From assembly GCA_043228905.1 (NCBI GenBank), contig JBHGNT010000018.1:17360001-17424000 (forward strand): DNA of 64,000 nt. The letters run 5' to 3'. Numbering within the stretch: the stretch's first letter is position 1; every line of letters starts with the position of its first letter. Positions 9,634 to 64,000 of this stretch are shown piece after piece. The notes under the pieces are model-generated. The model ran no database searches. It was not told where the DNA came from and saw only the letters and a program-made list of their open reading frames with translations. The position numbers and the translations under genes are program-made. Origin of the DNA: Azolla caroliniana (lineage: Eukaryota > Plantae > Polypodiophyta).

Positions 9634-10420
9634 AAATTAAACAAGGGAAAGACAACTTAGTAGAGATCAAGATCAAGAACTGAACAATACACCGAGAGAG
9701 AGAGAGAGACTCAAAGAAGTAGACAATGTCACTGTATTATTCCTAAAGTTACTACAAAATGACAACACTCACATCATCATCATGACGTGAGGAATGTGTT
9801 TCTTTTGTTTGATGGAATTGGAACATAGTATGTGTTTCCTTTGTTCCATTTGAATTGGTGTGTAGGGTGGGATTGAGTTTGTAGGGTGCCATTGGAGGCC
9901 AATTGCAATGGGCCAAGGACAAGGGGTGCCAACAAAATGTGGAAGGTGCTCAACTGTTCCCCTAGATGAAGGAAAGGGTTGATGTGTCCGTCTAATGGTA
10001 AAAGGAAAAGCAACACATGTGGTTGCAGTAGAAGTTGCCGGGTGGAGTAAACAAGGCCCCTTCCATTGTTGATCTTTTGTCCTACTCAGTGTCTACTTAT
10101 ACAAGCCAAGGGCTCTTTCACTATGTCACCCATTGTGGGTTTTTATTCAATCTCCCTTCCAAGTTTCTACAAGAGAATGGACAAGAGGAGGTAAGAATAC
10201 ACACACCTTTATCATTCCTTTTGCCTCGTGGTGGTCCATCAAGTTTGTCAAGGATTCGTTACGAATGGCAACTTTTGACGAATTATGCATTTCATACTAC
10301 GATTTCCCAATAGACCTTGTCATATTTCGCTACCGTACATACATTAAGAATGTTGTGTAATATTTAGCTCCCGAGAAGGGTTCTATACTTTAGTAAAGTT
10401 AATTACGGAAAGGGGGAGAG
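9634..10420 (-). mobile_element. LTR-like remnant interrupted by the preceding copia
   Basis: Same sequence as 39096-39670, 40705-41590 and 62176-62550. The 39 kb copy begins TGTTGG next to a reverse iMet-type PBS. Confidence 0.5.
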
Positions 10421-16884: not shown

Positions 16885-17714
16885 GTTGGAGAAATTCCTC
16901 GAGCATTGATTTTATCCATATGCCTTCTTTTAGCTGCTAAAGCCGCGACAACACATCCAACTTTGGTGGATGACAATGCTACGGTAGTATGTGTCTTCAA
17001 CTTCCACAAAATTGCATCGCCAGCAACTGTGTAAACATAACCACCTGTTGACTTGCGGTCATCCACATCTACCCCCCAATCAGAGTAACACCAACCAAAT
17101 TGTTGACTGGAGGGGTTTGTCCATCCTTGCACAAGTGTGGTTGACTCAGATTGTGTGGCTGATTAAGTCAATGTATAATGGTGAATATGTTTCAAATATC
17201 GTAGTAATCGCTTGACCGCTATCCAATGCTTTGGTCTTGGATTGGCCATGAAACAAGAAACAAAACCAACGGCAAAACAAATATATGGACGTGTGCATCT
17301 TTCTAGGTATCTTATACATTTATGTATTTGTTTATAAGGCACATCCTTCATTTCGGAAATTTCTCGTTCTATTTTTGGAGAATCATCATTTGAGAGTTTA
17401 CAAGGAGAGGTAAGCGGAGTACTAATGGACTTATTATGGAGCATATCAAACCTTTGGAGAATGGGATTAATATAGTTTGATTGTGATAATGAGATAGTAT
17501 GATTTGTTCCATTTTGAGTTACTTTAATGCCAAGAAAATGTGTCATAGTGCCTAAATTCGTGATATGAAAGGCATATGCAAGTTCCTTCTTTGCAATAGT
17601 TAGATAAGATTTAGAATTAGAGATCAAGTGCAAATCATCGACATAGACACCAATGATAACAAAAATGGATTTGACTTTTCTAATATAGATATTTGGCTCA
17701 TTGTTTTGATGATG

Positions 17715-27700: not shown

Positions 27701-30212
27701 AACGTGTTCTTGCTTGGATCGAATAAACGGTAAGCCTTGTAGCAACACTGCTGTTTGGGCGACAAAACGTGGCGGCGGTGGTGGTGGCGGCGACGGCGAC
27801 GGCGGTGTTTGCAGGGCGGCGAACAGTGGCAGCATCATCTTTTGACTGTTCGGCTCCTTCACGAGTATTAATTTTAGGGTTATGCGTTGGTGTCGTGGAT
27901 TCAAGAAATGGTGACTCATCAAATTTGACTGTACGACTATAAAAGAACGTGTTCTTGCTTGGATCGAATAAACGGTAAGCCTTGTAGCCGTTTGCATCTC
28001 CGTACCCAACAAAGATCGCTTTTCTTGCTCGTTGTTCTAACTTGGATCGTTTTTCAGCAGGGACGAAGGCGTATGCAAGGCAACCAAAAATTTTGAGATC
28101 TTGCATATTTGGTTTTACTCAAAACCATAACTCGTATGGTGTGATTAACCCAAGTGTTCGATGATAGTTGCGATTTTGGAGATAGCATGATGTTGCGACG
28201 GCTTCTTCCCAAAATGAGGGTGAAAGTGACGCTAGATTCAACATGCTCCGGGCCGAATTAAGGAGTGTTCGATTCTTGCGTTCGGCTAGACCATTTTGTT
28301 GTGGTGTTGAAGGAACAGAAATTCGTTGTAAAATTCCATGGTCTTTACAAAATTTTGTAAACTTGTTAGATGTATATTCTCCTCCCCCGTCAGATTGTAG
28401 ACATTTCAATTGTAGATTTAGTTGCTTTTCTGTTAGTGATTTGTAATTTGTAAAAGCAATGAACGCTTGGTCTTTGCTTTTGAGAAATGTTAGTATTGTA
28501 AACCTTGTATAATCATCGATGAAACTAATGAAATATTTTGATTTTAAAAGTGATTGAGTTGGGAATGGACCGCATATGTCACTATGGACGAGTTCAAGAG
28601 GTCGACTTCTTCGTGAGTTACTTGTAGGAAACTTTGATGATGCCATTTTGCCGAACAAGCATGCCTCACATAAGTCGATTTTGCAAAACATATCCTTTGG
28701 GACTCCTTGAGCGAGCTTGTGAGTTTGGAGTGTTCGCATAGCAGCAAGGTGTGGATGTCCAAGTCGGTAATGCCAAAGTAGAGTGAGTTCTTGTTGTCTT
28801 TCGATTTCGGTTGTGTGAACTTCGATTGTTGATTGGGTTGTTGGATGTACACTAATGGGATATAACCCTCCTTGTCTTTTGCAAGAAGTTCGTATTGTGA
28901 GACCATTTGGTAGAAGGTGACGAATCACGGCTTGGTTATGATGGAACTCGATGATGGTTCCATTCGAAGTTGCTTGACTTATCGAGAGAAGGTTCTTGGT
29001 GATACCAGGTACGTGGTACACATCATTGATCATGAAGTTTCCTCCTCCGGGGAGATGAAATGTAAGTTGGCCTTTGCCTAATGCTTGTTTTACTCCATTA
29101 TTTCCAAATCTAACAGTTATTGGATTTTGTAGGGGTGTGTACCTTTGAAGCCAATCCGATCGATGTGTAAGATGATTTGTTGCTCCGGTGTCGAGATACC
29201 ATTTGTCGTCCTTCTTTGTTGGTATGTCTGCGACAAGTGCTTCAGCTACGAAAGCTTGCATCAAGTCACTGTAACCTTCTTCTTCATATTCATTCTTTTC
29301 TTCCATCGAGGCGGCATAGACCTCTTCTTCTTCTTCTTCTTCTTCATTTCTCTCTTCCTCAAATTCCTCGACAATGTGCGCTTGTGGTCGGCGAATATTG
29401 CTTGGAAATCTCCGAATCTTTTGTTTTGCCTTACATTCTTGTGGTGTGTGGCCTGGCCTTTTGCAAATGTTGCAATAAGACCTAGTGAACTTCATTCCTC
29501 CTTTCGTCATCGGTGCATTAGTCCATTGACTCTTGAAACTCTTGTATCTTGGTTGTGATTTGAAATGAGGTCGATAGGCTGCCATAGCGATTGCTTGTGT
29601 TGATGTGTTTTCTTCTCTTGTCTTTCTCATCGAGTCTTCTTGCCTTATGTCTCCCATGAGATCTTCCACGGTAGCTTTTTTATTTAAATTTTGTGTAGTC
29701 ACAAAAGATGACCATGAAGAGGGTAAAGCACCTAGTAATAAACATCTTTGTAGTTTGTCAGAAATGTCCAAGCCAGATGTAATTGTATCATCCAGTTTCT
29801 TTTCCCAAGTGGTTAGAAAATTATCTACATCATCTTCTTCTTTCATTGTAAATGTGACATATGCACGTAGTGTGTGCACTTGTGCTGCATCCGTTTGTGG
29901 TTCATATTGTGTCTTTAATTTCTCCCAAATTTGATGCGAAGTTTGTAGCTTTCTGACCGCTTCTCCTTGAACATCTGATATATGTGCTAATAATTCCATT
30001 TTTGCTACAAGATCTTTCTCTTCCCAAATAACTTGATCGGGTCCGGGGGTATTAGGTTTTAGTGATGATCCTGACACTACATTCCAAAGTTTGTAGTGTT
30101 GAAATAATAATTCGAGTCGAGCACTCCAAATGCGATAATTTTGCTTTGATAACTTTACTAATGAAAGTTTATGTGTGTTGAGAATGTTGGCGGGAGATGA
30201 GGATTGTGCCAT
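24746..30212 (-). pseudogene. copia gag-pol polyprotein with disablements
   Basis: CNICKRPGH knuckle, WYLDTGATNH, HSDICG/SDGGGEY/NGLAER integrase, YVDD, RNase H. In-frame stops at 28119 and 27082, a 245-bp duplication, and a frameshift near 25925. Confidence 0.93.
27496..27985. repeat. 245-bp tandem duplication inside copia pol
   Basis: 27496-27740 is repeated at 27741-27985; the peptide YKAYRLFDPSK...FCRPNSSV occurs twice, in different frames. Confidence 0.92.
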
Positions 30213-30316
30213 TTTTATAGAAGAGGGCTATCCGGCTTAGCGCTCGTCTTGATGACAAATCGATCAATGCTCCTAGGATTCTCTAGTCTTATTTGATAGA
30301 TGCGGAAATCTATAAA

Positions 30317-30553: not shown

Positions 30554-33500
30554 CCTCCAGCTCCCAGCTCAGCAGGTGAATTGGGAACTTCTGCTTTCCC
30601 ACTCTGTTAATATATTGCATGGACTCAATACCTAAATCATTTTCTAACTTATATCATGACGCTGCAGCTGGTTATACAGCGCCTCACATGAGACCGTTTT
30701 CTGACAATTATGCAGAGGAGCGGGATCTCGATGAAGATTGTGAAAGAATGGAATGGAGTTATGAATATCCTTCAGCTTGGACATCAGCAGGTGAATTACT
30801 AGCTTCTGCACATAAGTACAACCTCAATCAATATGCGCAAATGACTAAATAACCTTCCAACTTATATGTAGATCATGAAGCTGCAGCAGGTTCTACAGAT
30901 CCTCCCATCACATCATTTTCAGATATGTATGCAGAGGATCTGGAGCAGCAATTAATGCTCCTTCTTGATGAAGATCATGAAATAATCCAAGGGAGCCCTG
31001 AATATCCTCCATCAACTACATCAGCAGGTGAATTAGTAGCTTCTGCTCATAACTAAAATGTCATTATAGTGGCATCGATAAATTGACCACATAACCTTCT
31101 AACTTATACTAGATCGTAAAGCTGCAGCTGGTTTTACAGAGGCTCCCATCATACCAATTGCTGACAATTTCTTAGAAGAGCTAGGGCATGACGAGGATCG
31201 TGAAAGAATTGAATGAAATTATGAATATCCTCTAGCTCCGACATCAGCAGGTTAATTAGTACCTTCTGCGCATAAGTACAGCCTCCATCAATATGTGCAA
31301 ATGACTAAATAACCTTCTAACTATTATATAGATCATGAAGCTACAGCTGGTTCTACAGAGCCTCCCGTCACATCATTTTCAGATATGTATGCAGAGGATC
31401 TGGAGCGGCAATTATTGCTCCTACTTGATGCAGAGCATGAAATAATCGAAGGGAGTTATGAATATCCTCCGTCAACTACGGCAGCAGGTGACTTAGTAGT
31501 TTTTGCTCATAATGGCAATGTCAATATAGCGCATCAATGAATTGATTACATAACCTTCTAACTTATATTTGATCGTAAAGCTGCAGCTGGTTCTACAGAG
31601 GCTTCCATCAGACCATTTGCTGAAAATTTTGTAGAAGAGCTAGGGCATGATGAAGATCACGTAAGAATTGAATGGAATTATGAACATCCTCTAGCTCCAA
31701 CATCTGCAGGTGAATTGGTAGCTTCGCCGCATAAGCACAATATCAATCAATATGTGCAAATGACTAAATAACCTTCTAACTTATATGTAGATCGTGAAGC
31801 TGCAGCAGGTTCTACAGATCCTCCCATCACATCATTTTCAGATATGTATGCAGAGGATCTGGAGCAGCAATTAATGCTCCTTCTTGATGAAGATCATGAA
31901 ATCATCGAAGGGAGCCCTGAATATCCTCCATCAACTACATCAGCAGGTGAATTAGTAGCTTCTGCTCATAACTAAAATGTCATTATAGTGGCATTGATCA
32001 ATTGACTACATAACCGTCTAACTTATATTAGATGGTAAAGCTGCAACTGGTTCTACAGAGGCTCCAATGAATAATGCCCAGGATGATTTTATACTTGCAG
32101 AGCTGCAGCAGCAGACAAATGGCACGATCATCATTGAGGAGATGAAGGAAGAGTTGGATGCCATCCTGCTAAATGCTGAAGGTGGCTTGAAAAAGCGGCT
32201 CATAACACCAATGACCAGTACCCAATTCAAGGTTCTGGAGGCCTTCTTTAAGACGGGCCGGCCCACGTTCGTCGAATGTCCAAGTTGAATTTCGATATTT
32301 TAACAACCAAACGAAGACTCTGTTGGTTCAGCCTCGCTTCAGCTGCAAGGTGTGCTTCACACCACCCCATTCTCCAGCGAAAGACTGGAACCAGCAAAAG
32401 CAGGATGAGAAAGTGAATAAGAGGAAGAAGCTGGAGTTTACGGTTCACCAAGAGGAATTGGAAATGCTGGCTGGTGCCTGGGGACGGCTTCACGCGCTGG
32501 TGCAACGTTTCTGGTCGATGCCACATGTCATCGAAGTTCTAGAGGCCAACAAATTTATTCCGTGTAGCAGCCGCCGCTGCAAGTCTGAGAGTCCAACCAA
32601 GTCATCGCCAAAGAGGAAGAGGAGATCGTGGGAGTCGAAGCAGGTCGATGATGGTGGTACTGCTGCTGAGAAGGTGATGGATCGTCAATTGCCTCTTATG
32701 AGAGATCATCATGATGAGGATATGTTGTGGATGGAATCTTTTAATTCCATCATCGGAGCAGAGAGGCTAGGTAGTTCTGCTGCCTATACCTCCAGCAATA
32801 CTAATCCTAACAATAATGATAGTGATTGGTATTATGATTACTATATGAGTTGCAGCAATCTAAACAATAAACATTGCTGCTTTCACTTGGTAACTATCTT
32901 CTCAACTACATTAATATAATTACCAAGTTTGCTCACTAAAGGGGTTGATCTGCTAATGATGTTTGATATAGCTAAATGTTTGATGTTATATATAGTTAAG
33001 GTTTGACCTACTTAGTTCAGAATTATCAGTCAGTAATTCTTTTCTTATATTAAGTATTATTTATTTTACGGTCTTGTGTGACGCTTGCTTGCCTAGTTGA
33101 TTGTAGTAATATATATAAGATATGTTGTGTTCGTCAAGCTTCTTGTAATTTGTTCTTTCTTAATCTCATCCATTACTTCTGTTAATGTTTTTTTTCATAA
33201 CTGATTGTCAACTGGTTGGGTTTTTGTTAATTTATTAAAGAAGGTATTTCAGCTAAATATATATGTACAACGCATTCTATTTGGTCTTGCTTCTGACAAT
33301 CTTGTTCATTATAAACTTCGCACAGGGGAAACGACAGACTGAAACGTACATACATTTTAAGCTTTGAATTTTCCAATGTTTGCAGGATGCAAGGAGTGGT
33401 AGTATCTTTACTGTTGATGTACAATATGTGTGCCATGGAATTGTACAATTGCCCTGTATTGTTAAAGATATCTCCCACACTTTCATGGACATCTGGCTAC

Positions 33501-43184: not shown

Positions 43185-43950
43185 GTTGCTGGTTCCGCTC
43201 TTTCAGCGGAGAATTGAGTGGCATAAAGCACACTTTACAACCGAAGCAAGGCTGAACCACAACTGAGTCTTTGTTTTGTCGTTAAAATACAGGAACTCTA
43301 CATTGACATTAGAAGCGCAGAGAGGGCATGGTGGAAATGTCCAAAGGCCTATCTTGAAGGTATCCAGAACCTTGAATTGGGTACTGGTCATTGGTGTGGT
43401 CAGCCTCTTTTTTAACCCGCCTTCAGCATTTAGGAGGATCGCATCCAACTTTGCCTTTATCACCTCAATGATCGTCGTGCCATTTGTCTGCTGTTGCAGC
43501 TCTTGTAGAACCTTGAAGGCAGCGTTGGATGCGATCCTCTTAAATGCTGAAGGCGGGTTAAAAAAGAGGCAGAGCACAGCAATGACGACTATCCAATTCA
43601 AGGCTCTAGACACCTTCTTCAAGATGGGCCTTCCGACATCACTACCATGCCCTCTCTACGCATCTAATGTCAATGTAGAATTCCAATAAGTGTCAGTTGG
43701 TTCAGCCCCACTTTGGGTTGCACAGTGTGTTTATGCCACTCCATTATCTGCAGAAAGAGTGGAATTAGCAACAGCAGGAGGAGCATGTGAATAAGATGAA
43801 GAAGCTGGAGTTTACACTTCATGGAAAGGGATTGGAAGTGCTGGCTGGTGCCTATAGGAGCCTCAGTGTGGCTGCAACGTTTCTGGTCAATGCCACGAGT
43901 CATTGAAGTTCTGGAGGCGAACAGATTTATTCTGTGCAGCAGCTGTTGCA
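43185..43950 (+). pseudogene. Copy D: inverted duplication of the Dof-like exon (fold-back, arms 43185-43458 and 43514-43772)
   Basis: The same peptide LDAILLNAEGGLKKR...CPL(C/Y)ASNVNVEF is encoded on both strands; both arms are disabled. Confidence 0.88.
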
Positions 43951-46283
43951 TGTCAGCAAGAAGAAGACCACATTGCTCTAATTAAAATTACAGTGATTAG
44001 GGTTATCAGTACTCTTCAAAGAAAAAATCTTGTAACTCAGATTGCCAGTTATGGAGTTATTATTATTATTATCATTATAGGTTTCTTGGATCACACACAG
44101 TGGTGACGTGACCATTGTGAGTCCTCTCAGATATGATAGAGCTCTCCTCGGATCAAGAAAGATGGATTGTAGAACCAAATGAAGATGGGCAACAACTCAT
44201 TCATGGATACGTAATGGTGGACATGGAAGTGAAATGTCACTGTAAACCAATATATCCATAATCCAAGCATTCATGGTTAGTTCCACAAATGGCATATGTA
44301 ACAAGTGCGGTTGGAATCATTCACTATTTTAAAGACTAGATGTTAGATTTTCCTTCAGCCTTTCAATTATAAGTCACAATATCATATTTTTGTGACAGCT
44401 TCAAAACTAGGTACTAGGTTTTAGTAGTAGAGCATATGTTATTGTTTAAACCCCTCTCAAGGGGTGGTAGAAATAAAGGACCTTTGACCTCTCCCACATG
44501 AACTTGAATCCATAATAGCATTGCACACAATTTGTGCAAGTTTGGGTTCCCAAAAATTGTTAGTTCCCTATTGGGTAACGAGGTAAATGATGGATGGCAT
44601 AATAGTACCTCAAAGCACATCCCCTCCATAGAGTGTGGTCAACACCAGCCATATCAAGGAAAACATAGTTTTGTTCGTAGGACATCAAACGAAGGATATA
44701 GGCATGTTGTCCCTAGTTCTGAAGCATATGAATGAATGTTGTGGAGGTGAATACTTTGTTGTTGGTTGACAAGTAGAAGAGAAGCAATAATCGGTTGGCC
44801 TCTCTTTGGGCATGACACAACATTTGAAGCTTTGCACTAGGGATGAAAGCACAACGCCGAACCTATAGGTGCATGGTCCTAAGCATAGGTTTGAGATAGT
44901 ACTAATCTTCGCCTCGCACTTTGTGAACTTTTTCTCTTGTTTACTTCGCTTCCTCCTAAAACTTGCCCATGAGCTAAAGTGGGAAGGATAAATTTACGTT
45001 TTTGGCAATAGCTCCCTCCCACTCACCAACATACTTAACTTATCCTTTTGGAAAAGAACATCAAGTTAGGGTCTCATGAGTTGAAGTGGTGCATAATATT
45101 TGGTTGGACATGGTCCATACTCTATTGGTTTATTACTCAATGTGTCCACTTTTTGACTTTCTTGGAAAATACTCTACTTTTGTCTTGAAAAGCTGGTCTC
45201 CCTTTTTCACATTTTTAGTTGCCAAGATGGTTGTACGCTTCGTGATAACCCATATGCATACGTCCACATCCACATCCATATCCACACACACACACACACA
45301 TCCACATACTAATACTCATGCACATACACATACGTCTATACACACATACACACACATATAACATAGAAATACACAATTAATTATACATGCTCATTCACAA
45401 GTATACATGAGGGTAGACATACTTCTATATAAATGTATCCACACATACTCCCTAACACACTAAAAAATACAATTACACTAATAGACACATTTTTATGCAA
45501 ACATATATATTGTGGTGTACGTTTTGAGCAAGCGCATGCCGTCATGTTGTGGTGTACCTTTGTTCCTTTGTGCCACCCGTTTAGCATGCATGTAGCCAAA
45601 CCAACCCAAATGGGTATCAACTTATCAACTATAAATTGAGTAAGAAGTAAGAAGCAAGGCAAGCTTGTTTGGATTCTCTCTATGTGCTTTTCACAATATG
45701 CACTTGTATGTGTAAATACAAAATTTATTCATTACATGCACATATTCACTACATAGCATTGAAACCTAGTTAGTACACCATACAAGCTCACATGGCTCAC
45801 ATATAATCTAATGCACATATATTATCGATCTGAACCGCATTATTGGTGAAGGCACAAGCTACAAATGAATCTCTCAAACACGATGAAAGCACCTAGACAT
45901 GCATCACATCACTTAAAAAAGGAGAGAGGTCATCAAATAAACCAACAAGTCTGGACATGTGGGCACGTTGGATTGCATTAGGTTGCATATTCCACGACAT
46001 AGAATAGTTTTATCAACAATAACATTTGATCAATCAAAGTGTAGACTACACAATAATAGTGCAAGTCCATGAGTTTGTATATTTGGCTACCGGATAATAG
46101 GATTGACAATGAAGATAGGATAGAAGGACCATATAATTGTTGCATAAACCAACTTCCATCACTTCATGGATATTGATAGGCCCAAGAAACCCATCCCACT
46201 CCATGGTCACGATGAATAAATGCATAGTGTAAGTGACATATTGTATCTAGGATGAAGATTTTAAAGGAAGATTGGATCAATGT

Positions 46284-49200
46284 TGTTATAGACTAGACTG
46301 ATAAAAGACTATTAAGCAAGATCAAAGAGCGATTAGATGTTAATCCAGATCCCTAATCGCATATCAATATAATCTCAAGATAGAGCTCATTGGCTATGAT
46401 GAATGCCTAGTGCAGATGCACTTAATAGGTTATCTTCTATATTGTCAGACAATAAGCCCTCAAGATGCCAAAATGATTAAGATACATGAATTTATGACCC
46501 AAAAGATGATGGGATACATGCTTACTATTTACATCATTACATGCATGAGATAGGTATAACATGACTCATTACATGCATGAGTTCATAATACTCCCCCTCA
46601 TCTCATCATCATTGTTTTAGCTCATCGGCTCTGATAATCTTTTGAGTCCAAGAGAAGGAATGTTCAGCCATTGTTTTGATGCAGGTAAGCTTTTGGTAAA
46701 AATATCCGCGAAGTTCTTGCTTGATGTAATAGGTTGAATGTTGATATAATTATCATTGAGCTCACGAGTAAAGAAAAACTTGAGAGAAATATGTTTGATT
46801 CAATCACCTTTAATGAAGCCCTTCTTGAATTGATTAATGCAAGCATAACTATCTTCATAGATAATTGTTGGTAATGGGGGCCGATAAACCGCAAGAACTT
46901 CCATTATGTCTGATTAAGCATTGTAACAATAGGCATTCTCAACTTGCTTCATGTAATGCCAATATCTCAACATGATTTGAAGGTGTTGCAGCGAATGTTT
47001 GCTTTGTTGATCTCCAAGAGATCGTTGTACCACCAACAAGGAGAACATAACCTATTTGTGATTTGCCAACATGAGAGTCAGATAAGTACCCATTGTTAGA
47101 ATAACCGGTCAATTGACTGTGCATAGAACCATTGGTAAAGAAAAGACCCATATCTTCAGTGCCTTGTAAATATTAGAAAATCAGCTTAATTCCAGTCTAG
47201 TGTCACTTGGTAGGATCGTGACTATACTGAGCCAGCAAATTGACAACGAATGAAATGTCCGGACGCGTACAATTAGCCAAGTACATAAGTGCGCCAACAA
47301 CAACCATTTAAGGGTACTGTGGTCCAAATGCTGACTCGTCAAAAGATCTTGGCTAAAATGGGTTACGAGAAGGGTCCAAAGAGCAAACTACCATAGGAGT
47401 TCTAGTAGAATGAGCTTGATCAATAGAAAACCGTTTTAATATTTTATGGATATAAGAGATCTTATAAGCAAAATGTGGTTAAACCGAGGTCTTTCATTTC
47501 AAATTGTTGTACTTCATCCAAATGTTGTACTTCTGGCTTCGGGGTATAGGCTTCAGTGGTCAACTTTGACAGTGTAGGAAGCGTCAAAGCCTTGTGTATC
47601 GAATTCCCGTTGAAAACACAAGGTTTTCTACTAAACAAACGAACATGGATATCGATAAAAAAAAGCTAATAAATTGCACCTATGTGGGCAATTTTAGGGT
47701 TTATCAACCTAATTATTGCCTATAGTTAAATAATTGGTTTCTTTATCATGCTACTACTAAAATATTTATTCTATTTTAGTGAACCTCGCCAAAAAGTCCC
47801 CGCCTTCAATCTTAAGATCATGTCTCCTGCGAAAAGGGGTTATGATGGCTATCAACAAAGCAAATCCCATAGGCTATTTTTCGAGTTTGGTTTACGTCGA
47901 GGAAGATGGAGTATTATTCCTAATATTTGCAAAGTCCGAAGGAAAGGGAAAAATGGATTTAGTCAAGAGCTTCACATACGGTAGACTTCGGAATGTTGAG
48001 TACGAAGATAATGACTCACCTAATCTCGTCCTTGATGTAGAAAGCTTGAATGGGACTAGACGGGTACTCATTGATGAAGGCAACCTGGTGGCTGAGTGTC
48101 AAAAACCAAAAAGACTAATCAACCACCTAATTGAGTTGTTTTCAAACCCAAATGATTGGGTTTTAGATTTGTTTTCCGGCACAGGTATATAATATAAAAC
48201 TTGTCGCATCAATTTAGATTAATGTATAGTCTATTCTTTAGTTTGATGTTACATGTGCAATTTCATTCTACTGTCAGGTACTACTACAACATGCACCTTA
48301 AAGATGTTCAAGAACTCTGTTGCATTGGAGAAGGACCCTTGATAATGTTAATTTCATCAAAATGAGGATCCAAGGTATCCTAGGACTGTCCAGATCAAGA
48401 CCAAGATGTTGGGGCAAAGAATATCAATGAAACTAAGATGTTCCAGATGACTTCTAGAGAACCTATGGAACCTGTAGTTGAAGAAGCAGGGGACCTTGTT
48501 GAATTAGAAGACGTGTTAGAGTTTGAACACACTAATGATTCTATTGAGCGTACCGACGAAGCCAATGAGGACAATCTTGATGAAGGAGCTAATGCGGAAG
48601 AGCCGGCTTTACCAAACCTATTATTGGATTGAATGCATATGGCTTATTGTAAAATTTGAACAATATGAATTGTTAAATTTTGATGTAATATATAAGTTGA
48701 GCTTATTTATAATTTTCGTGTAACATGCATTGAACTTAGAGATTAAGTATAATTTGTATGTGTACTTGTTGTTTGAAGTCTCCTTTATTATTTGGGGTTT
48801 ATATGAGATAAAATTATACTCTATCATTTGCTCGTATGATTGGAATACTATTGTAGACTGGTTTATTTCTACATTGACGGTGTCATGTATCACGTGTCAA
48901 GGGAATTTTTCTCTCAACATAGTAGTATCTCTTAATTGTCATGTTCACAATTTGCTTTTTAAGAAATATTTTATATAAATATACACACATAATTAAAAGA
49001 AGTCACTTATTCAGTGGGGTATGCTTTTTAGAATATGCACAATGACATGTGTTACTATTATACTTGCGTTGACATCTATACCTTATCTAAGTTTTGGACA
49101 AAAACATGGTAGATAGAATATACGTCAGATGATTTTGTTGTCGTGATATTAGTTAGTTCTATTTTTCGCTATGTTTTCATAAACCACATACGCATGCATC

Positions 49201-50498
49201 GTGCCTTTTTGAAATTCTGCTTAAATAGGGCATTTTTTAACATCTCACTAAGATATGAAAAAGAGAATGTGACATATTACCTATTTCAAATGACCCGGTG
49301 TTTACCATATTAGCCTTCGATTTCCTATCTTGACCTTGCTTGCCATACTTCTGATAAAGATCAACATGAAACTTAGAAGTTTGGCAAGTATTTGCCTAAT
49401 ACCCTCGTAGACCACATCAAAGACATGAATTGGATGAAGCATTATCTTGACTTGACTTTGATTGATGGTACATTAGCTTGACTTGATTACTTTTGGGATA
49501 TTGATTCCTATTGTTCGTCTTCCTCGAATTTGTGCATATGGGTGTTGATGACGATGTTGTCGTCTAGAATAATTAATCTCGACATGCGTCAAATCCTTAA
49601 ATTGTAGAGGAGCCACAAGTTGGCTAATTGGATGAAGTTTATTATTCTTGAGGAACACTTGGTGGTGTTTCTTAGCGACAAGAAGTTCAGATAAAAGTTC
49701 AACATAGGTTTTAAAACCACGATTACGATATTGTTCGGAAAGATTAAAATTTGAGGGATGAAAACTAGTTAACGTTTTGTTGATTAGATTTGCCTCTTGA
49801 ACAAGGTTGTCATGACCACAAAATTTAAGTTTAGAAACGATACCAAATAGTGAGGAATTATATTCAACAACTGACTTGAAATCTTGAAAATGAAGTTGAT
49901 TCCATTCATGTAAAGTGTTGGGGCGGAGAACAGTTCATTGATGATCAAAGCGGTCAAGTTTGATTTGCTTTCGGAGAGTTGATGGATTCTTGATGGAGAA
50001 GTATTGATTCTGAAGGCTTAGATCAAGGTGATGAAGGATCAAGATGAATGCTTCCGCTCCCTTCTTCCTAGCATTTTAGTTCTCAACATCATTAAAATTA
50101 TCACTTACGTTATGAAGGAGATCTTTCGTCGTGAGATGGCCTTCAACATGAACCATCCAAGTCATATAATTGGACCCATCGAACGCAAATGGCGAGAATA
50201 AGCATTTCTCTATTTGAAGAGCTTGAGAAGCTATACTAATGGTAACAATAAGGTAGATTTGTCTAAGAGAATAATTAATTGCAATGGTAGACGTTGATCG
50301 TGCTAATAACGTGTTATAGAATAGACTGATTATAGACTATTACGCAAGATCAAAGAGCGATTAGATATTAATCCAGATCACTAATCGCATATCAATATAA
50401 TTTCAAGATATAAGCTCATAGGCTGCATACTATTGACATCACGACTAAGATAGGTATAAGTTTATAACATAAATCATTACATGCATGAGTTCATAACA
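46284..50498 (-). mobile_element. Degenerate copia, probably Bianca lineage, with a foreign internal insert
   Basis: LTRs ~46284-46590 and 50313-50498; imperfect TSD AATGT/AATGC; PPT AGGGGGAG; PBS-like CGTTATTAGCACGA; gag LHFQDFKSVVEYNSSLF; RNase H ATPSNHVEILALHEAS. Confidence 0.8.
47780..48632 (+). pseudogene. Fragment of a beta-class DNA N4-cytosine/N6-adenine methyltransferase-like gene with a spliceosomal intron
   Basis: CQKPKRLINHLIELFSNPNDWVLDLFSGT, then intron 48185-48277, then GTTTTCTLKMFKNSVALEKDP, a frameshift, VNFIKMRI and an acidic tail. Confidence 0.72.
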
Positions 50499-54856: not shown

Positions 54857-57039
54857 ATGGCTCCTGCTGGCGTAGACAGAGATACCCAAATCATTCCTAA
54901 TGATGAATTCGCAGGATTACTATTACATGAGACGGAAGTGGAAGACTTCCAACAGTTGGTGCTTCAATTGCTCCACCAAACAGAAGATGATGAATCAATC
55001 AGGGTTGACTCCTTGGAACTTCCCGTCACATCAACGTCCCACGACAATGTGGACATATATGCAGATGAGCTGGAGCAATTCCTGCTCCTGCACCAGGAAA
55101 ATCAAGAGATACCTGAAGCTCTGACATCCGCAGGTCCATTAGGAGCTTCCAATATCAATAAATGTGTGCGAATAAAAATAGTAAACATGTTTCTGAAATG
55201 TTTATGCACGATACAGCTGCAGCGGGTTCCACAGAATCTCCCGTCACATCTGTCTGCATAATTGAAGACAGTCGTGAAGATCCACCAGCTCTGAGATCAG
55301 CAGGTGAATTAGGAAACTCCTGCTTTCCCATTCTGTTAATATATGCAGAGACCCAATACCTAAATCATTTTCTAACTTATATCATGACGTTGCAGCTGGG
55401 CAAATCAATATGGGCAAATGACTAAATCATTTTCTAACTTGTATATAGATTATGAAGCTGGAGCTGGTTCTACAGGGCCTCCTATCACATCAATTTCAGA
55501 TATGTATGCAGGGGATCTGGAGGAGCAATTATTACGCCTTCTTGAGGAAGACCAAGAAATAATCGAAGGGATTCCTGAATATCCTTCCCCAGCGACATCA
55601 GCAGGTGAATTAATAGCTTCTGCTCATAACTGCAATGTCAATATAATGCATCGATAAATTGAGTACATAACTTTCTAACTTATATTAGATCGTAAAGCTG
55701 CAGCTGGTTCTATAGAGGCTCCCATCAGACCATTTGCTGACAATTATGTAGAGGAGGTAGGGCTTAATGAAGATCATGAAAGAATTGAATGGAATTTTGA
55801 ATATCCTCCAGCTCAGACATCAGAAGGTGAATTTGTAGTTTCTGGGCATAAGTACAATCTCAGTCAATATGGGCAAATGACTAAATAATCTTCTAACTAT
55901 TATATAGATCATGATGCTGCAGTTGGTTCTACAGAGCCACCCATCACATCATTTTCGGATATATATGCAGAGGATCTGGAGCAGCAATTACTGCTCCTAC
56001 TTGATGAAGACCATGAAATAATGGAAAGGGGTCCGGAATATCCTCAGGCAGTAGCGACATCAGCAGGTGAATTAGTAGCTTCTGCTCATAACTACAATGT
56101 GAATAGGGAGTGCATTGGTAAATTGACTCCATAACCTTCTAACTTATAATAGATCGTAACGCTGCAGTTGGTTCTACAAAAGCTCCCATGAATAATGCTC
56201 AAGATGATTTTCTACTTGAAGAGCTGCAGCAGCAGACAAATGGCACAACCATGATTGAGGTGATGAAGGCAGAGTTGGCTGCGATCCTGCTAAATGCCGA
56301 AGGCGGGTTGAAGAAGAGGCTGAGCGCACCAATGACGACTACCCAATTCAAGGTGTTGGACGCCTTTTTCAAGATTGGTCTGCCTACATTACCATTATGC
56401 CCTCATTGCAAGACGAATGTCCACGTAGAATTCCGATATTTTAACAACCGAACGAAGACTCGGTTGGTTCAGCCTCGCTTCGGCTGCAAGGTGTGCTTTG
56501 CACCACCCCATTCTCCGGAGAAAGAATGGAACCAGCAAAAGCAGGAGGAGAATGTGAATAATAGGAAGAAGCTCGAGTTTACTCTTCACCAAGAGGAATT
56601 GGAAGTGCTGGTTGGTGCCTGGGGAGGGCTTCACGCGCTGGTGCAACGTTTCTGGTCGATGCCACATGTCATCGAAGTTCTGGAGGCCAACAAATTTATT
56701 CTGTGTAGCAGCCGCCGCCGCAAGTCTGAGAGTCCAACCAATTCATCGCCAAAGAGGAAGAGGAGATCGTGGGAGTCGAAGCAGGTCAATGATGGTGGTA
56801 GTACTGCTGAGAACATGATTGATCATCAGATGCCTCCTATTAGAGATCATCATGATGAGGATATGTTGTGGATGGAATCTTTTAATTCCATCATCGCAGC
56901 AGAGAGGCTAGGTAGTAGTTCTGCTGCCTATAGCCCTAGAAATACTAATCCTAACAATAATGATAGTGATTGGTATCATGATTACTATATGAGTTGCAGC
57001 AACCTGAACAATAACAACATTGCTGCTTTCACTTGGTAA
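54857..57039 (+). CDS. Repeat-exon Dof-like zinc-finger gene, copy C (intact, ~567 aa)
   Basis: Exons 54857-55133, 55217-55303, 55449-55604, 55689-55826, 55908-56066, 56153-57039 join into 1704 nt with no internal stop. C-x2-C-x25-C-x2-C finger at 56398-56496; basic SPKRKRR motif. Confidence 0.85.
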
Positions 57040-58559: not shown

Positions 58560-61500
58560 TTGCGTGAATAAATTACAATCTCATAATCATGTTTATCAAT
58601 AAGGTCATTTGGGTGTGATTTTGAAGAGTGATTTCAACGCAATGGATTAAAGATATCGGAGACTTGAATTGAGTGGAAACAAAATCAACATCATGTGGGA
58701 AGCATTTAAGGTTTACCATAACGTATATTGTGTGGTTAGTGCATATATGGAGCCAACATCTACCATTGATGGATGTTGACATATTGACCCTTTGAGCCCT
58801 TATTGAGGAGGGCAAAGCCCATAGTAAGGGGATTTATTGTTGATTTGTGGATTTCTAAAAAAACCTTGACAATGAGACATGCTCGCAGCTCATGCAACAA
58901 TTAGATGCCCTCAACATCCTTATAAATATGCAATGGGGAATCTATCATTGCATGACTATGGTATCAGAAACAGAGCGGTCTCATGGTGGTCAGATGATGT
59001 GGGTAGCACAATTGAAGTAAAACAAGGATACCGTTTGTTACCTACTCTCTTTGGTCTTTATATAGATGAGGTGTCACATTACATAGAGAGATTGAACAAT
59101 CCAAGAGCATGGCTAGCATATATATCCATACAAATATTACTATATGTTGATGATATTGTGTCGATGGATAGATTGATAGCATGTATATCCATATAAATAT
59201 CTGTTGGGGATATTATGTTGTTGACACCCCCGAAAAGACTACAAAGGTATCGAAATGCCTTAAAAGTATTTTGTATGGATAAAGATATCTAAATAAAACT
59301 AAAGTGATGGTATTTAATGCAACACGAGCATGAGGAACAAGATCAACCCCATAATTCTTCGTGGGTGAGGAAAAGGTAGCATACGCACAATCCTCCAAGC
59401 ACCAAAGAATCCTTCTTGGAAGAGGAAAAGGTGGATCTCCGGACCTGAGTTCTAACGATGAGGTCAGCGAGGCTAAAATGCCTCCGGATGACAATGAAAT
59501 CAAGACCCTCGACGAGAGTCCGATTTCATTTAGGCTAAGTGGACCGAACGAGCGACTGGGTTGGTTTGACCAGTCCAAAGAAGAGTCGGCGAGTAGTGGA
59601 GACTCAGCCGTGCATTCCCTGCGCAGGAAGCCAAGGAGACGGTTTACGCGAAAGGAAAAAGGGAAGAAGAAGATGCTGGAGTACGGCACGGATAAGGGCA
59701 AGTCGGATCGACACAAATCCGACTACGAGAAGAGAGATGACGGACCTTCGAGAGCGAAGTCCACGTCAGCCAAGAAAGCCTCAACATCGGCTAATGAGCA
59801 ATTACGTCGATCTACCCGCCAGAAGAACCTTGTTGTGCGGTTCGAATACAACGAGTACATGGCGCATCACTATGCATACATGACACATGTAGCGGAAGTG
59901 GGTGAGCCGGAGAGCTACGCAGAAGCGGCGAAGGACACAAATTGGCATGCCGCAATGGAGGAAGAGATGCGCGCATTGGCGAAGAATGAAACCTAGGACC
60001 TAGTAGACGCACCGAAGGGTGTGAAGCCGATCGGATGTAGGTGGGTGTACAAGGTCAAGTACAACACTAACGGCTCGATCAACTGATACAAGGCCCGGTT
60101 AGTAGCGAAAGGCTATGCGCAGCAATACGGCATCAACTACGATGAGATGTTTGCGCCAGTCGCAAAGATGACGACCGTCCGTGTTTTGCTTGAGGTAGCT
60201 ACGGCGAAGGGGTGGCACTTACATCAGATGGATGTCAAGAATGCGTTCCTGTAAGGCGAGCTTGAGGAACAGGTGTACATGGTACAACCCCCCGGATTTC
60301 ACTTCGAAATGAACACCTTGGCGGTCTACCGGTTGAAGAAGAACCTTTACGAACTAAAGCAAGCCCCACGTGCTTGGAACAGGAAAATCACTCAGCGATT
60401 GCGTCGGATGGGATTTGCAACGTCCAAATCGAACTCTTCCCTGTTCATTCGGCAAGGTTGACTCGGGCCGGTTAGTATTTTACTTTATGTTGATGACTTG
60501 GTCATCACCGGCGCCGACCTAGGTGAAATTGACCGTGTAAAGCTCCAGCTTGCGGCATCGCTGGACATGAAGGACCTGGGGGACCTTCACTACTTCCTCG
60601 GGATCGAAGTGATCCGTACCCCCAAAGGCATATTGATCAACCAACGACATTACGTGTTGGGTATGCTCTTCAAGTTTGGGATGGCAGATTGTAAGTCAGT
60701 CTCGACTCCTCTAGATAGAACCGTCAAGCTTCGCCCCGACTTTGGAAAGGTTTGCGACCCAACGAGGTTCCTACAGATTGTCGGAAGCCTCATCTACTTG
60801 ACTATCACTCGACCAGACCTCAGTTAGTCGGTCGGTGTGATTAGTCAGTTCATGGTGCGGAAAACTGAGGAGCCCCTACAGTGCGCACAACGCATACTCT
60901 GGTACGTCAGTGGCACAAAGGACGAGGGCCTACTATATCGGACCGATATTGCCGCGCAGTTAGTCAGTTACACCGATGTTGATTGGGCCGGAAACGCCGG
61001 CGATTGGCGATCCACATCCGGATTCGCGTTCTCTCTTGGGAGTGCTGCGATCGCGTGGAGTAGCAAGAAGCAGCCGACAGTTGCATTGTTGAGCACCAAA
61101 GCCGAGTATAGAGGAGCCGTTGTCGCAACATGCGAAGCCATCTGGCTGAAACGGCTACTTAAGGATTTGCGGATGGAGGTGTCCGATCCGACGACGATCT
61201 ATTGCGACAACCTCAGCAACATCCAATTAGCGAAGAACCCTATCTTCCACGCCCAGACTAAGCACATTGAGGTGCACTACCACTTTGTCCACGAGCGTGG
61301 CCTCTCTGGTGAAGTCGAACTTCAGTATGTTCCAATGGCTTGGCAGACTGCCGACATTTTCACCAAGCCTCTTGGTCTTGACAAGTTGTGGCAATTCTCA
61401 GGTGCATTTGGGTTGTGACACCTTGATGTGCTGAACTTGAGGGGGAGAGAAGTCCCGGAAGACCACATAAGGGAGCAGGAAAGGAGCAGAAGAGACCATG

Positions 61501-64000
61501 ACGCCGAGTCGGATGACGAATTCGATTTCGGGTCGGTTGAAGAAGCCGAGGGCGGATCCACGAAAGAGTTCAAAAGCGGACGTGAGGGCAGCAGTCGAAT
61601 GAAAGAGCCGAAGCCAACCAAGCATGGGGGAGATGAAGCTAACTCGAATGAGAGCGAAGACCGATCAGAGGAAGCCGATTCGGTTCGGAGACGCCGAATC
61701 AACCGAGGGCCAAGCGTAAGAAAGGGCAACCGAAGAGGCGCCAACACCGCGACAACAAGGGAGCTGAGAAGTGCTTGAGGGGGAGTGTTGCAATACAAGC
61801 TCAACATTGGCCGGATCGGCTGTGCAAGCTAAGAACCGGATCGGTTGGGACCGATCAGTTAGGCCAAACCGGGTGCACAAACTGGTGCGCAACAAGAAGT
61901 CGGAGCGATGCGTAAACCGCGAGGCCGTTGGAAAGATATTACGCGTAGGAATATATTTTGGAAGTTAGTGTGAAGCTCATTTATGAGCATTGAAGTACGC
62001 GTCAATACTTCTGTTAGTCCATATGGACTTGTATAAAAGTGCTCATTGAGCACATTCTATGTACAAACTGAGTATTATTTTTTGAACAAATTGTGTGTGT
62101 GTGTCCAAGCTCTCCATTAAACCTGTGTTTTCCTACGTTCTGCTTCTGTTGCTTCCGCATGTTGTTCTTTTCACAAAATTAAACAAGGGAAAGACAACTT
62201 AGTAGAGATCAAGATCGAGAATTGAACAATACACCGAGAGAGAGAGAGAGACTCAAAGAAGTAGACAATGTCACTGTATTATTCCTAAAGTTACTACAAA
62301 ATGACAGCACTCACATCATCATCATGACTTGAGGAATGTGTTTCTTTTGTTTGATGGAATTGGAACATAGTATGTGTTTCCTTTGTTCCATTTGAATTGG
62401 TGTGTAGGGTGGGATTGAGTTTGTAGGGTGCCATTGGAGGCCAATTGTGATATTTTGCTACTGTACATACATTAAGAATGTTGTATAATATTTAGCTCCT
62501 GAGAAGGGTTCTATACTTTAGTAAAGTTAGTTACGGAAAGGGGATGAGAGAAATATTGTTGTATTTCCTATTTTTCTGAACAGAACTGACGAAGGAAATA
62601 GAATGTCAATTTGCTAACCTAGGCTTCTGAACATACAATGTAGGGCCATCACAATTATCCTCAATGCTTTGTTCCTGTTTTTATTATTATGAATTATGAA
62701 CAATTTGTAAGTTGGAGTTTGCCATTGCATGCAACAATACAAAGGTGTTAGATTAGAACACAGAATGACCAACCATGAATGGGTACTAATTCGTAACCAT
62801 GCAGGAAAAATGTGGTATTTAACTCACACATTGGTAGACAATGGTGGAAGCCACAATAAATTTGCATTGGAGACATGACCACGATTTTCCTGTGGTAAAA
62901 ATACATTTCAAGCACAACATGCACAATAACTTCCAATGGCGTCGAGTCGTACCTAGTGCTGGCGCGCTCGCTACAAGAGTTGACCCACCACAAGACAGAG
63001 TCTCGACGTAGTGAACAAGATGATGAAATGAGGGTAGCTATGCCTCTTATTTATAGCGATACCCAAGGCCCCCAAGCAAGTTCACACTTGGCCTAATGGG
63101 TTGTCTCAATCCCGAGGATTAAAAGTAATCCTCCCCTTCTTTACGCTCTCGTTTAACCCTCACACTTATCCACATGTATAGAATGCATAGTCTAAGTGAC
63201 ATATTGTATCTAGGATGAAGATTTTAATGGAAGATTGGATCAATGCAACTGAATTGAATAAATTAATATGCTAACATGATCCCATTCCTTCTTATTGATA
63301 GCCCAATGTGATCTACCATACGTGCATTCGCATTCGAGAATGATTCAATGAAACGTGTATGGTAAATCATTTCAAAGTTGGGAAAAAAATAAAGATTGGA
63401 ATTTCAAAAAAATAACTATGGTCTATCTTATATATTGATTGAATAAAAAATTGAAAGTTCAAAACTTAGGAATTACTTAACTACTAAACATTAGAAAGCA
63501 CAAACATAAAAATCAAATAATTCAAAGACATAATTGTATTGATGATGAGCTCATCTTGCAATTATCGATTTTCTCATCTTGCAACTAGTGAAGGTATCAA
63601 TTTCTTCACTTTAGAACTTTACAAAAAAATGAGTATGAACTATAGAGATTGAATAAAAAGATGTCATTATACATTATAATCAAATGTTCAAAAACTCATA
63701 AAACGTATAAGAAAACATGAGGCTAACATAAAAATTTATTATGACATCACACTAAAGAGAGAGAGATAGGGAGAAAATTGGAATTCGAACCCAAGACATA
63801 CATAAGTGATAGTAGCACAACAACTTACCACTAGGGTGAGCTCATCATCAATAACACAAAAGGATAAATAAGAAAAAACAAGAAACACCTAAATTTCCCG
63901 TTTCAAACGTTTGTATGCTTGCATGAACACGTTTATTACTTTATATGGATCTAACCATCTCTCAAAACAAACTTGGAGAAGGTAACAATGTGTGAATTTA
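58560..64000 (+). repeat. Segmental duplication, copy 2 of 5940-11872 (continues past the window end)
   Basis: Collinear with copy 1 up to the last base of the window. Confidence 0.92.
59395..62175 (+). mobile_element. 5'-truncated copia, duplicate of 6746-9633 (3' LTR 61786-62175)
   Basis: Same junctions and several of the same stop codons as the first copy, so it was duplicated with the segment rather than transposed independently. Confidence 0.88.

What the first reader, a model, noticed from the sequence alone, without database searches (positions are those of the whole stretch)
47780..48632. Bacterial-type N4mC/N6mA DNA methyltransferase fragment with an intron, carried inside an LTR element
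Seen: QKP..LI..LI..FS...D.VLDLFSGT is split by a GT-AG intron (48185-48277) and continues in frame as GTTTTCTLKMFKNSVALEKDP, then after a frameshift NFIKMRI. Known: this is the C-terminal SAM-binding layout of beta-class amino-methyltransferases (QKP...VLDPFxGSGTT...GRxxIGxE.D...RI). Such enzymes are mainly prokaryotic, with horizontally acquired 4mC writers described in bdelloid rotifers and Marchantia. The catalytic (D/S)PPY motif is not visible and this copy is broken. Inference: the genome has, or had, an intact intron-bearing amino-methyltransferase, possibly TE-borne.
Basis: partly seen in the sequence, partly recalled or inferred. Interest (0 to 1): 0.8.

Follow-up and report, generated by a model that had tools for sequence, protein, structure and literature searches.

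The report
Broken transposon-borne plant DNA methyltransferase
This is a broken, internally deleted copy of a cut-and-paste transposon lying inside an older retrotransposon of a plant (likely a fern); intact relatives carry a conserved, intron-containing bacterial-type DNA methyltransferase fused to a predicted ParB-like domain that likely marks the transposon's own DNA, a design already reported in a brown alga.

Summary
The fragment is real: Pfam N6_N4_Mtase E=1.6e-8, and its GT donor recurs at the same codon in 68 of 76 related loci. It is not cargo of the LTR element. It belongs to a 1.8-kb deletion remnant of a Sola-like DNA transposon (window 47498-49302) nested in a Copia element. Intact relatives, such as L004 (7.6 kb, 33-bp TIRs), hold a DUF7869 transposase head-to-head with a spliced gene: N-terminal domain, predicted ParB fold, then a beta-class methyltransferase with DIPY/DIPH (52 of 80 loci), under purifying selection. 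The window copy lost the ParB part and the catalytic motif in one 2.26-kb deletion and has three frameshifts, so it is dead. Ginkgo has five homologues. The intact protein likely binds palindromes in its own element and writes 6mA; no activity is shown, and affinity to rotifer or Marchantia 4mC writers is not supported. The design is published for Ectocarpus Sola1-1_Ec32; my searches found no land-plant report. This scan has noted the same family many times on other DNA of this genome and in other genomes.

The parts
46283..46588 (-). 3' LTR of the host Copia element (TG..CA type), interrupted by an insert of about 120 bp
   Evidence: aligns with 50311-50498; purine tract abuts it on the minus strand
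46398..46464 (+). Piece of the Sola-like transposase inside the 3' LTR (likely repair filler)
   Evidence: tblastn 82% over 22 aa, E=1.8e-6, to the L004 transposase; blastn 75% over 67 nt
46590..47493 (-). Degenerate Copia RT C-terminal half and RNase H
   Evidence: tblastn of a Copia ORF from elsewhere in the window: 29% over 196 aa, E=1.7e-22, at 46906-47454
47498..47593 (-). Remnant of the Sola-like DUF7869 transposase; left edge is the deletion junction with Copia RT
   Evidence: 77% over 96 nt to L004 1611-1706; tblastn E=9e-10; DUF7869 E=0.038
47594..47779 (+). Remnant of the region upstream of the main exon (likely intron), with one half-site of the family palindrome at 47596 and the AG acceptor
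   Evidence: half-site found; 47721-47886 aligns to L028 at 69%; AG at the same place in L004
47780..47886 (+). Start of the main exon (EPRQKVP...), ending at a 104-bp frameshifting deletion with 4-bp microhomology at 47883-47886
   Evidence: comparison with L028 and L004; P0008/P0054 show the undeleted peptide
47887..48099 (+). N-terminal beta-rich domain of the accessory protein (no Pfam family; weak PH-like fold match)
   Evidence: 50-73% identity to the best phmmer hits; AlphaFold confident at model residues 64-176; best Z 5.4
48100..48184 (+). Methyltransferase motifs X and I (QKP..DWVLDLFSG), fused to the N-terminal domain by a deletion of about 2.26 kb that removed the ParB-like domain and the DIPY catalytic exon
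   Evidence: similarity to full-length relatives begins at 48099/48100; 82-89% aa identity over 28 codons
48185..48277 (+). 93-bp GT-AG intron inside motif I
   Evidence: donor position shared by 68 of 76 loci
48278..48632 (+). Last exon: motifs II-III and acidic tail, with two +1 frameshifts; stop at 48630-48632
   Evidence: 70% aa identity of the tail to L004; other copies lack one base near 48340 and 48380 (table 4)
48633..49269 (+). 3' non-coding and subterminal region of the transposon
   Evidence: 67-79% identity to L028, L027 and L032
49270..49302 (-). Right terminal inverted repeat (reads AACACC.. from the end)
   Evidence: same end in 12 loci with different flanks; 95% over 37 nt to the left TIR of L004
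49303..50310 (-). Degenerate Copia gag, cut by the insertion
   Evidence: six-frame translation; DUF4219 E=0.0025
50311..50498 (-). 5' LTR of the host Copia element; flanks AATGT/AATGC are a near-perfect 5-bp target duplication
   Evidence: a DNA contig skips 46282-50504 (table 5)

Best explanation
The stretch is a dead, internally deleted copy of a Sola-like cut-and-paste transposon nested in a Copia element, and its intact relatives encode an intron-containing protein with a predicted ParB-like domain and a beta-class DNA amino-methyltransferase domain that likely binds palindromes in its own element and would write N6-methyladenine there. History, inferred from the junctions: the transposon inserted at the end of Copia gag in the opposite orientation. 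Deletions removed its left end together with the Copia protease, integrase and first half of RT, about 1.9 kb between transposase and passenger gene, 104 bp of the main exon, and 2.26 kb holding the ParB-like domain and catalytic motif; their order is unknown. Mechanism in intact copies, inferred: the ParB-like domain loads at CGATRC-N3-GYATCG palindromes just upstream of the main exon, which brings the methyltransferase onto the element's own control region between the two divergent genes. The mark would favour the element's expression or transposition against 5mC silencing. Odds: anatomy and TE origin about 0.95; catalytically active DNA methyltransferase about 0.75; adenine rather than cytosine about 0.75 of that; self-targeting through the palindromes about 0.6.
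For: Shown: L004 has 33-bp perfect TIRs, an uninterrupted 897-aa DUF7869 ORF (E=1.7e-52) and the passenger gene on the opposite strand with an ADIPYG motif. Transposase and passenger gene lie head-to-head in 5 of 80 loci (L004, L036, L068, L069, L021), and both termini are present in 4 of them; L068 has a 4-bp target duplication. The window shares the terminus, a transposase remnant and four collinear gene pieces with these. Its junctions are bridged by DNA contigs with no differences: 47429-47786 in X2 and 47980-48254 in X3, a second study. DIPY in 40 and DIPH in 12 of 80 loci. dN/dS of the DIPY exon is 0 to 0.05 in 5 of 6 unsaturated pairs (0.26 in the sixth; 5 of 11 pairs saturated); for the QKP exon it is 0 to 0.05 in 7 of 7 unsaturated pairs; for the transposase 0.10-0.23. 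Predicted: the AlphaFold model of the main exon (mean pLDDT 71) has ParB/Noc as all 8 Foldseek hits at E<=0.001 and PadC Z 9.9, rmsd 3.0, 100 aligned. Palindrome in 20 of 80 loci, 1-12 copies, at most 0.05 expected. Ginkgo Gb_37443 ranks N6-adenine enzymes M.RsrI, M.MboIIA and CcrM first (E=2e-6 to 5e-6). Same design in Ectocarpus Sola1-1_Ec32 (PMC12477816, passages).
Against: No enzyme activity, modified base, DNA binding or spliced transcript is shown. DIPY/DIPH departs from the textbook DPPY (recalled), and DIPH has lost the aromatic residue. The ParB-like motif reads GG[SN]HS without the arginine of the ParB nucleotide-binding motif (ParB motif recalled), so a CTP clamp is uncertain. A target duplication is seen in only 1 of 4 loci with both ends. 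L004, L036, L001, L006 and L039 show a single palindrome, 10 of 28 loci with the N-terminal domain show none (9 of them have under 450 bases upstream), and the pattern was read off these same loci. No transposase was found in loci of the DIPH group. The PDB ranking rests mostly on the SAM-binding part, which does not determine the target base. The loci are collapsed repeat contigs from metagenomes, of unknown plant species.
Confidence: 0.6

Rival explanations
1. Same transposon origin, but the intact enzyme writes N4-methylcytosine, for example at the CG in the palindromes, blocking host 5mC, like MpDN4MT1 or rotifer N4CMT.
For: PF01555 covers both activities; PMC12477816 leaves the base open for the Ectocarpus protein; the palindrome holds CG dinucleotides; some D-motif beta enzymes are 4mC writers (recalled).
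Against: No SPPY-type match under the motif pattern in 80 loci, whereas MpDN4MT1 has TSPPY and N4CMT SPPY. N4CMT E=0.35 and M.PvuII E=0.91 against E=2e-6 for M.RsrI.
Confidence: 0.14
2. The passenger protein is a DNA-binding transposition or transcription cofactor whose methyltransferase fold is catalytically silent or acts on RNA.
For: Non-canonical DIPY/DIPH motif; DIRS-borne methyltransferase domains are reported as likely inactive (PMC4738411); streptophytes are described as lacking abundant genomic 6mA (bioRxiv 10.64898/2026.05.21.726589).
Against: The catalytic-motif exon and the SAM-binding exon are both under stronger constraint than the transposase; D, P and the aromatic residue are kept in 40 loci, and FSG[TS]G is near-invariant.
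Confidence: 0.2
3. A piece of a host methyltransferase gene was captured and carried by the LTR retrotransposon.
For: It lies between two LTRs and replaces the Copia protease-integrase-RT region; Ginkgo homologues are annotated as genes.
Against: The insert ends exactly at a TIR shared with 12 loci that have other flanks, includes a transposase remnant, and keeps its intron in the orientation opposite to the Copia. No other locus among 80 has these Copia flanks.
Confidence: 0.04
4. An RNA or protein methyltransferase (Trm11, PrmA type), or a chance match or bacterial contaminant.
For: Weak sub-threshold Pfam and NCBIfam hits of relative P0047 to PrmA, TRM5 and RsmD models (E=1e-4 to 0.08).
Against: N6_N4_Mtase is the best hit by over 13 orders of magnitude for P0047 (E=5e-18); the catalytic motif precedes the SAM motif, as in the beta class; conserved introns and plant TE context.
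Confidence: 0.02

Closest known systems
Sola1-1_Ec32 of Ectocarpus and its 1104-aa ParB-like + N4/N6 methyltransferase accessory protein (PMC12477816; passages read)
   Same: Sola transposon; accessory gene on the strand opposite the transposase; ParB-like plus amino-methyltransferase domains; self-modification proposed, untested
   Different: Brown alga, 21.5 kb, against land plant, 6.0-7.8 kb here; I could not compare sequences, so common descent is untested; palindromes and the N-terminal domain are not mentioned in the passages read
Sola1 cluster_4009 of the fern Cibotium barometz (PMC12973397 Table S2 row)
   Same: TIR begins AACACC and shares CATTTGAAA with the TIR here; 4-bp TSD; 19 autonomous copies listed
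   Different: The row lists only 'Sola1' as domain; the terms Mtase, N6_N4 and DUF7869 do not occur in the searched supplement; its sequence was not compared by me
Plavaka accessory genes PAG2/PAG3 of red algae (bioRxiv 10.1101/2025.02.11.637652; passages)
   Same: DNA transposon carrying a PF01555 methylase and a ParB-like protein, with arrays of inverted repeats beside the ParB gene
   Different: There the methylase is fused to SET and ParB to a 2OG oxygenase, in separate genes of an EnSpm-type element; here ParB and methylase are one protein in a Sola-like element
Beta-class N6-adenine methyltransferases M.RsrI, M.MboIIA, CcrM (PDB hits)
   Same: Motif order: catalytic motif, then QKP, then FxGxG
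   Different: DIPY/DIPH motif, ParB fusion, introns, transposon-borne; all NCBIfam scores are far below family cut-offs
Eukaryotic 4mC writers MpDN4MT1a/b (bioRxiv 10.1101/2021.02.12.428880) and rotifer N4CMT (PMC8885841); passages
   Same: PF01555-type enzyme of prokaryotic origin in a eukaryote
   Different: They are host genes with SPPY motifs; N4CMT has a chromodomain; similarity to N4CMT is at noise level (E=0.35); MpDN4MT1 could not be compared
DAM-carrying DIRS and LTR retrotransposons (bioRxiv 10.64898/2026.05.21.726589; part 1 of 5 and passages)
   Same: Transposon-borne prokaryote-like adenine methyltransferase proposed to aid the element
   Different: Retrotransposons with DAM-type domains, and DAM-LTRs are reported absent from Streptophyta; here a class II element, though by accident nested in an LTR element

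Membership tests
Beta-class DNA amino-methyltransferase (PF01555), intact relatives | Profile match above the curated cut-off | tested here: met
   window ORF 35.2 bits, Ginkgo P0046 65.7, P0047 66.2; cut-off 26.7
Beta-class DNA amino-methyltransferase (PF01555), intact relatives | Catalytic motif IV N-terminal to the SAM-binding motif I | tested here: met
   DIPY exon precedes the QKP..FSG exon in L004 and the other full loci
Beta-class DNA amino-methyltransferase (PF01555), intact relatives | Canonical (D/N/S)PP(Y/F) catalytic motif | tested here: inconclusive
   DIPY 40, DIPH 12 of 80 loci: D, P and aromatic kept in DIPY, first Pro replaced
Beta-class DNA amino-methyltransferase (PF01555), intact relatives | SAM-dependent methylation of DNA | not testable with these tools
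   needs a biochemical assay
Beta-class DNA amino-methyltransferase, the window copy | Catalytic motif and intact frame | tested here: not met
   motif exon deleted; one frameshifting deletion and two +1 frameshifts
Eukaryotic 4mC writers (MpDN4MT1, N4CMT) | SPPY catalytic motif | tested here: not met
   no SPPY-type match under the pattern; the motif is DIPY/DIPH
Eukaryotic 4mC writers (MpDN4MT1, N4CMT) | Shared clade in a phylogeny | not tested
   their sequences were not in hand; the tree held only family members and 4 distant prokaryote-type rows on long branches
Sola DNA transposons | Terminal inverted repeats (11-1124 bp per PMC10741241) | tested here: met
   33-bp perfect TIR in L004, 34-bp in L021; matching termini in L068 and L069
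Sola DNA transposons | 4-bp target-site duplication | tested here: inconclusive
   present in L068, absent in L004, L021 and L069, which may be collapsed contigs; the window has lost its left end
Sola DNA transposons | DDD transposase of the Sola type | tested here: inconclusive
   DUF7869 E<=4e-51 in 5 of 5 ORFs scanned, with DGMDQ, QLDN and GHTHDHID motifs; no Sola reference sequence was available, so DUF7869 = Sola rests on recall and on the TIR likeness to the published Cibotium Sola1
ParB/Srx-fold nucleotide-binding domains | ParB/Srx fold | tested here: met
   Foldseek: 8 of 8 hits at E<=0.001 are ParB or Noc; VIA Z 9.9 to PadC over model residues 248-389; on a predicted model
ParB CTPase clamps | Arginine-bearing nucleotide motif (GxxRxxA, recalled) | tested here: not met
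   the equivalent segment is GG[SN]HSxEA, with Ser invariant in 32 of 32 rows
ParB CTPase clamps | Sequence-specific loading on palindromic sites | not testable with these tools
   palindromes are present; binding is untested
LTR retrotransposon gene capture (transduction) | Cargo without mobile ends of its own, amplified with the LTR element | tested here: not met
   cargo ends at its own TIR and holds its own transposase remnant; no other locus shares the Copia flanks

The most novel reading that the evidence does not exclude
Land-plant Sola transposons, in ferns and with relatives in Ginkgo, encode an active self-targeting adenine methyltransferase that is loaded on an internal palindrome array by a ParB-fold domain. 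This would be a parS-like address system used by a eukaryotic transposon, and an enzyme-backed source of localised 6mA in nuclear DNA of a lineage thought to lack it.
Probability: 0.35. Interest if true: 0.8.

Novelty: new member of a known kind. Interest (0 to 1): 0.5.

Why it matters
The window copy itself is dead and does nothing. The family matters because reports of 6mA or 4mC in multicellular plants usually lack an identified enzyme and target. Here there is a conserved candidate writer, a candidate address (the palindromes) and defined loci at which to look, so the question becomes directly testable by long-read modification calling and one in vitro assay. If active, it would extend the few known cases of transposons that modify their own chromatin to a prokaryote-derived ParB-methyltransferase in land plants. 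The design is already in print for a brown alga, which caps the surprise.

Tried and rejected
No whole genome is held for this window, so intact copies in this organism could not be searched directly; no reads were laid on L004, so whether organism A holds an L004-like intact element stays open. A word-indexed search with the window ORF for longer proteins found 0 of 292 candidates, because the ORF is a deletion chimera. With P0046 it found 5 of 4530, all Ginkgo, and with the tail alignment 3 of 7992, all Ginkgo. The protein Atlas gave no answer for either query. Single-sequence AlphaFold of P0057 failed (pLDDT 35) and was not used. A profile of the main exon found nothing in the PDB by sequence (3 chance hits at E>1). 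The N-terminal domain gave only weak PH-like matches (Z 4 to 5.4), which is inconclusive; it was not folded alone. Viral contigs: 0 relatives with P0057 and 2 distant ones with the tail alignment; no donor was identified, and the tree cannot place the family among prokaryotic enzymes. Expression: no RNA holder listed. One contig of a run only guessed to be RNA spans the intron at unspliced spacing; not used as evidence. Summed contig depth is far higher over 48150-49380 than over the flanks, but contig depth is no copy number and was not used. My first palindrome scan used even lengths and missed the odd-spaced sites. A tblastn extension of the transposase remnant to 47656 is doubtful, since DNA similarity stops at 47593 and a palindrome half-site follows. 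The Cell version of the Marchantia paper and the original Sola paper are not held; bioRxiv supplements could not be seen and may list land-plant homologues.

Full report
Observation. The window is transposon-rich, about 38-40% G+C, with Copia and LINE remnants. At the stated place the peptide QKP..DWVLDLFSGT (from 48100) is followed by GT at 48185 and AG at 48277, and continues in frame as GTTTTCTLKMFKNSVALEKDP. ORF 47761-48189 matches PF01555 at E=1.6e-8, above the cut-off. The flanking element has LTRs at 46283-46588 and 50311-50498, a near-perfect 5-bp target duplication, and gag and RT/RNase H on the minus strand; protease, integrase and the first half of RT are missing.

The ORF is a chimera. 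A phmmer search of 1.84 billion proteins gave 52 hits of two kinds: most match query residues 35-113 at up to 73% identity and then continue with a different sequence (LRKD..NLIVAL), while a minority match only the QKP tail. One hit, Ginkgo Gb_37443 (EukProt), holds both parts, separated by about 450 residues; four more Ginkgo paralogues exist. So the window copy is an internal deletion of a much longer gene.

Intact relatives. A metagenome scan with the tail alignment kept the best 80 of 260 confirmed stretches; most are AT-rich and intron-bearing. L004 is a complete 7,594-bp element with 33-bp perfect TIRs, an 897-aa DUF7869 ORF (E=1.7e-52) and, head-to-head, the passenger gene with an ADIPYG motif. 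Five loci show this arrangement and a sixth holds both genes in a nested layout. Both termini are present in 4 loci (6.0-7.8 kb); one has a 4-bp target duplication and three do not. A published fern Sola1 (Cibotium, PMC12973397 Table S2 row) has a similar TIR and a 4-bp TSD, and Sola elements are described as DDD transposons with 4-bp TSDs (PMC10741241, passage). That DUF7869 marks Sola transposases is my recall; that the host is a fern is an inference from this TIR likeness and from earlier scan notes.

The window copy. Similarity to relatives ends at 49302, the TIR end, in 12 loci with different flanks. On the left, 47498-47593 is a piece of the transposase, followed by a palindrome half-site, the splice acceptor, the exon start, a 104-bp deletion at a 4-bp microhomology, the N-terminal domain, and a 2.26-kb deletion at 48099 that removed the ParB-like domain and the catalytic exon. 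Two +1 frameshifts break the last exon. DNA contigs bridge the left junction (X2) and the 48099 junction (X3, another study) without differences, so these are not assembly errors; X2 may be the source sample. The copy is therefore a 1.8-kb dead remnant of a DNA transposon that landed in a Copia element, not cargo of that element.

What the intact protein is. The intron donor inside motif I is at the same codon in 68 of 76 loci with the motif. The catalytic motif is DIPY in 40 and DIPH in 12 of 80 loci. Pairwise dN/dS is 0-0.05 for the DIPY exon in 5 of 6 unsaturated pairs (0.26 in one), 0-0.05 for the QKP exon in 7 of 7, and 0.10-0.23 for the transposase; between two dead copies (window and L028) it is 0.31-0.43 on short stretches. 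These loci are collapsed repeat contigs, so the values describe family consensus divergence. An AlphaFold model built on a 44-row alignment (mean pLDDT 71) matches ParB and Noc by Foldseek (8 of 8 hits at E<=0.001) and ParB-like PadC at Z 9.9. The ParB arginine motif (recalled) is replaced by GG[SN]HS. The N-terminal domain, the part kept in the window, folds confidently but matches only PH-like folds weakly (Z up to 5.4). Against the PDB, Gb_37443 ranks M.RsrI, M.MboIIA and CcrM at E=2e-6 to 5e-6, rotifer N4CMT at 0.35 and M.PvuII at 0.91.

Palindromes. Earlier scan notes pointed me to an internal palindrome array, which I then tested. CGATRC-N3-GYATCG (one mismatch allowed) occurs in 20 of 80 loci, 1-12 times, mostly upstream of the main exon, against at most 0.05 expected from shuffles. 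Ten of 28 loci with the N-terminal domain have none, nine of them with little upstream DNA. The pattern was read from these loci, so the test shows recurrence, not function. The window has no whole site.

Mechanism. Shown: anatomy, domain order, conservation and the dead state of this copy. Predicted: the ParB-like fold. Inferred: the intact protein binds the palindromes between the two divergent genes and methylates nearby adenines, favouring the element against host 5mC silencing. Rivals are a 4mC writer (0.14), a catalytically silent or RNA-acting cofactor (0.2), LTR capture of a host gene (0.04) and a non-DNA methyltransferase (0.02).

Comparison and novelty. [quoted passage not shown] Red-algal Plavaka elements carry the two domains in separate genes with inverted-repeat arrays (bioRxiv 10.1101/2025.02.11.637652, passages). 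DAM-bearing retrotransposons are a different class, and DAM-LTRs are reported absent from Streptophyta (bioRxiv 10.64898/2026.05.21.726589, part 1 and passages). Iyer et al. 2016 (PMC4738411, passages and section 8) describe a ParB-HTH-fused family in chlorophytes and chytrids and note few such enzymes in land plants. Paper searches (listings seen) showed no report of this passenger gene in land plants; subscription papers and Repbase were not searchable. The scan has noted the family repeatedly in this genome and others; those notes are not independent support.

Verdict. A real but dead copy, and a new member of a known kind at family level. Interest 0.5: the copy is ordinary debris, while the family gives a testable candidate for a self-targeting non-5mC writer in land plants.

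Noticed in passing
window 46396-46518: The Copia 3' LTR carries an insert of about 120 bp, absent from the 5' LTR, that includes a piece of the same Sola-like transposase; likely filler from break repair.
   Followed up: partly
L028 1-1608: An independent deletion derivative of the same subfamily: it also lacks the ParB and DIPY exons, but with other breakpoints.
   Followed up: partly
L012, L024, L026, L042, L049, L056, L078; Ginkgo P0046, P0057-P0060: A well-supported DIPH group (98/97) that includes Ginkgo; no DUF7869 transposase was found in these loci, so it may ride another element or be domesticated.
   Followed up: partly
L064 4012-6332: A partial transposase lies downstream of the passenger gene beyond a terminus at about 4040, which suggests one copy inserted into another.
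   Followed up: no
window 32215-32916, 56143-57036, 43206-43655: Repeated ORFs with weak Dof zinc-ribbon matches (E=4e-5 to 0.3) beside tandem repeats of about 459 bp; possibly another transposon family.
   Followed up: no
window 24746-30227 and 17624-19822: A frameshifted but domain-complete Copia element and a LINE-type RT ORF.
   Followed up: no
window 6228-11552 and 58877-63680: Two copies, 95-98% alike in the blocks reported, of a repeat about 5 kb long.
   Followed up: no
P0051: A remote intronless relative with a DLPY motif and a C-terminal cysteine-rich segment; source unnamed.
   Followed up: no
PMC12973397 Table S2, rows 3204-3205: The representative sequences look shifted by one row: the sequence under cluster_4008 begins with a near-copy of the TIR listed for cluster_4009.
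   Followed up: no
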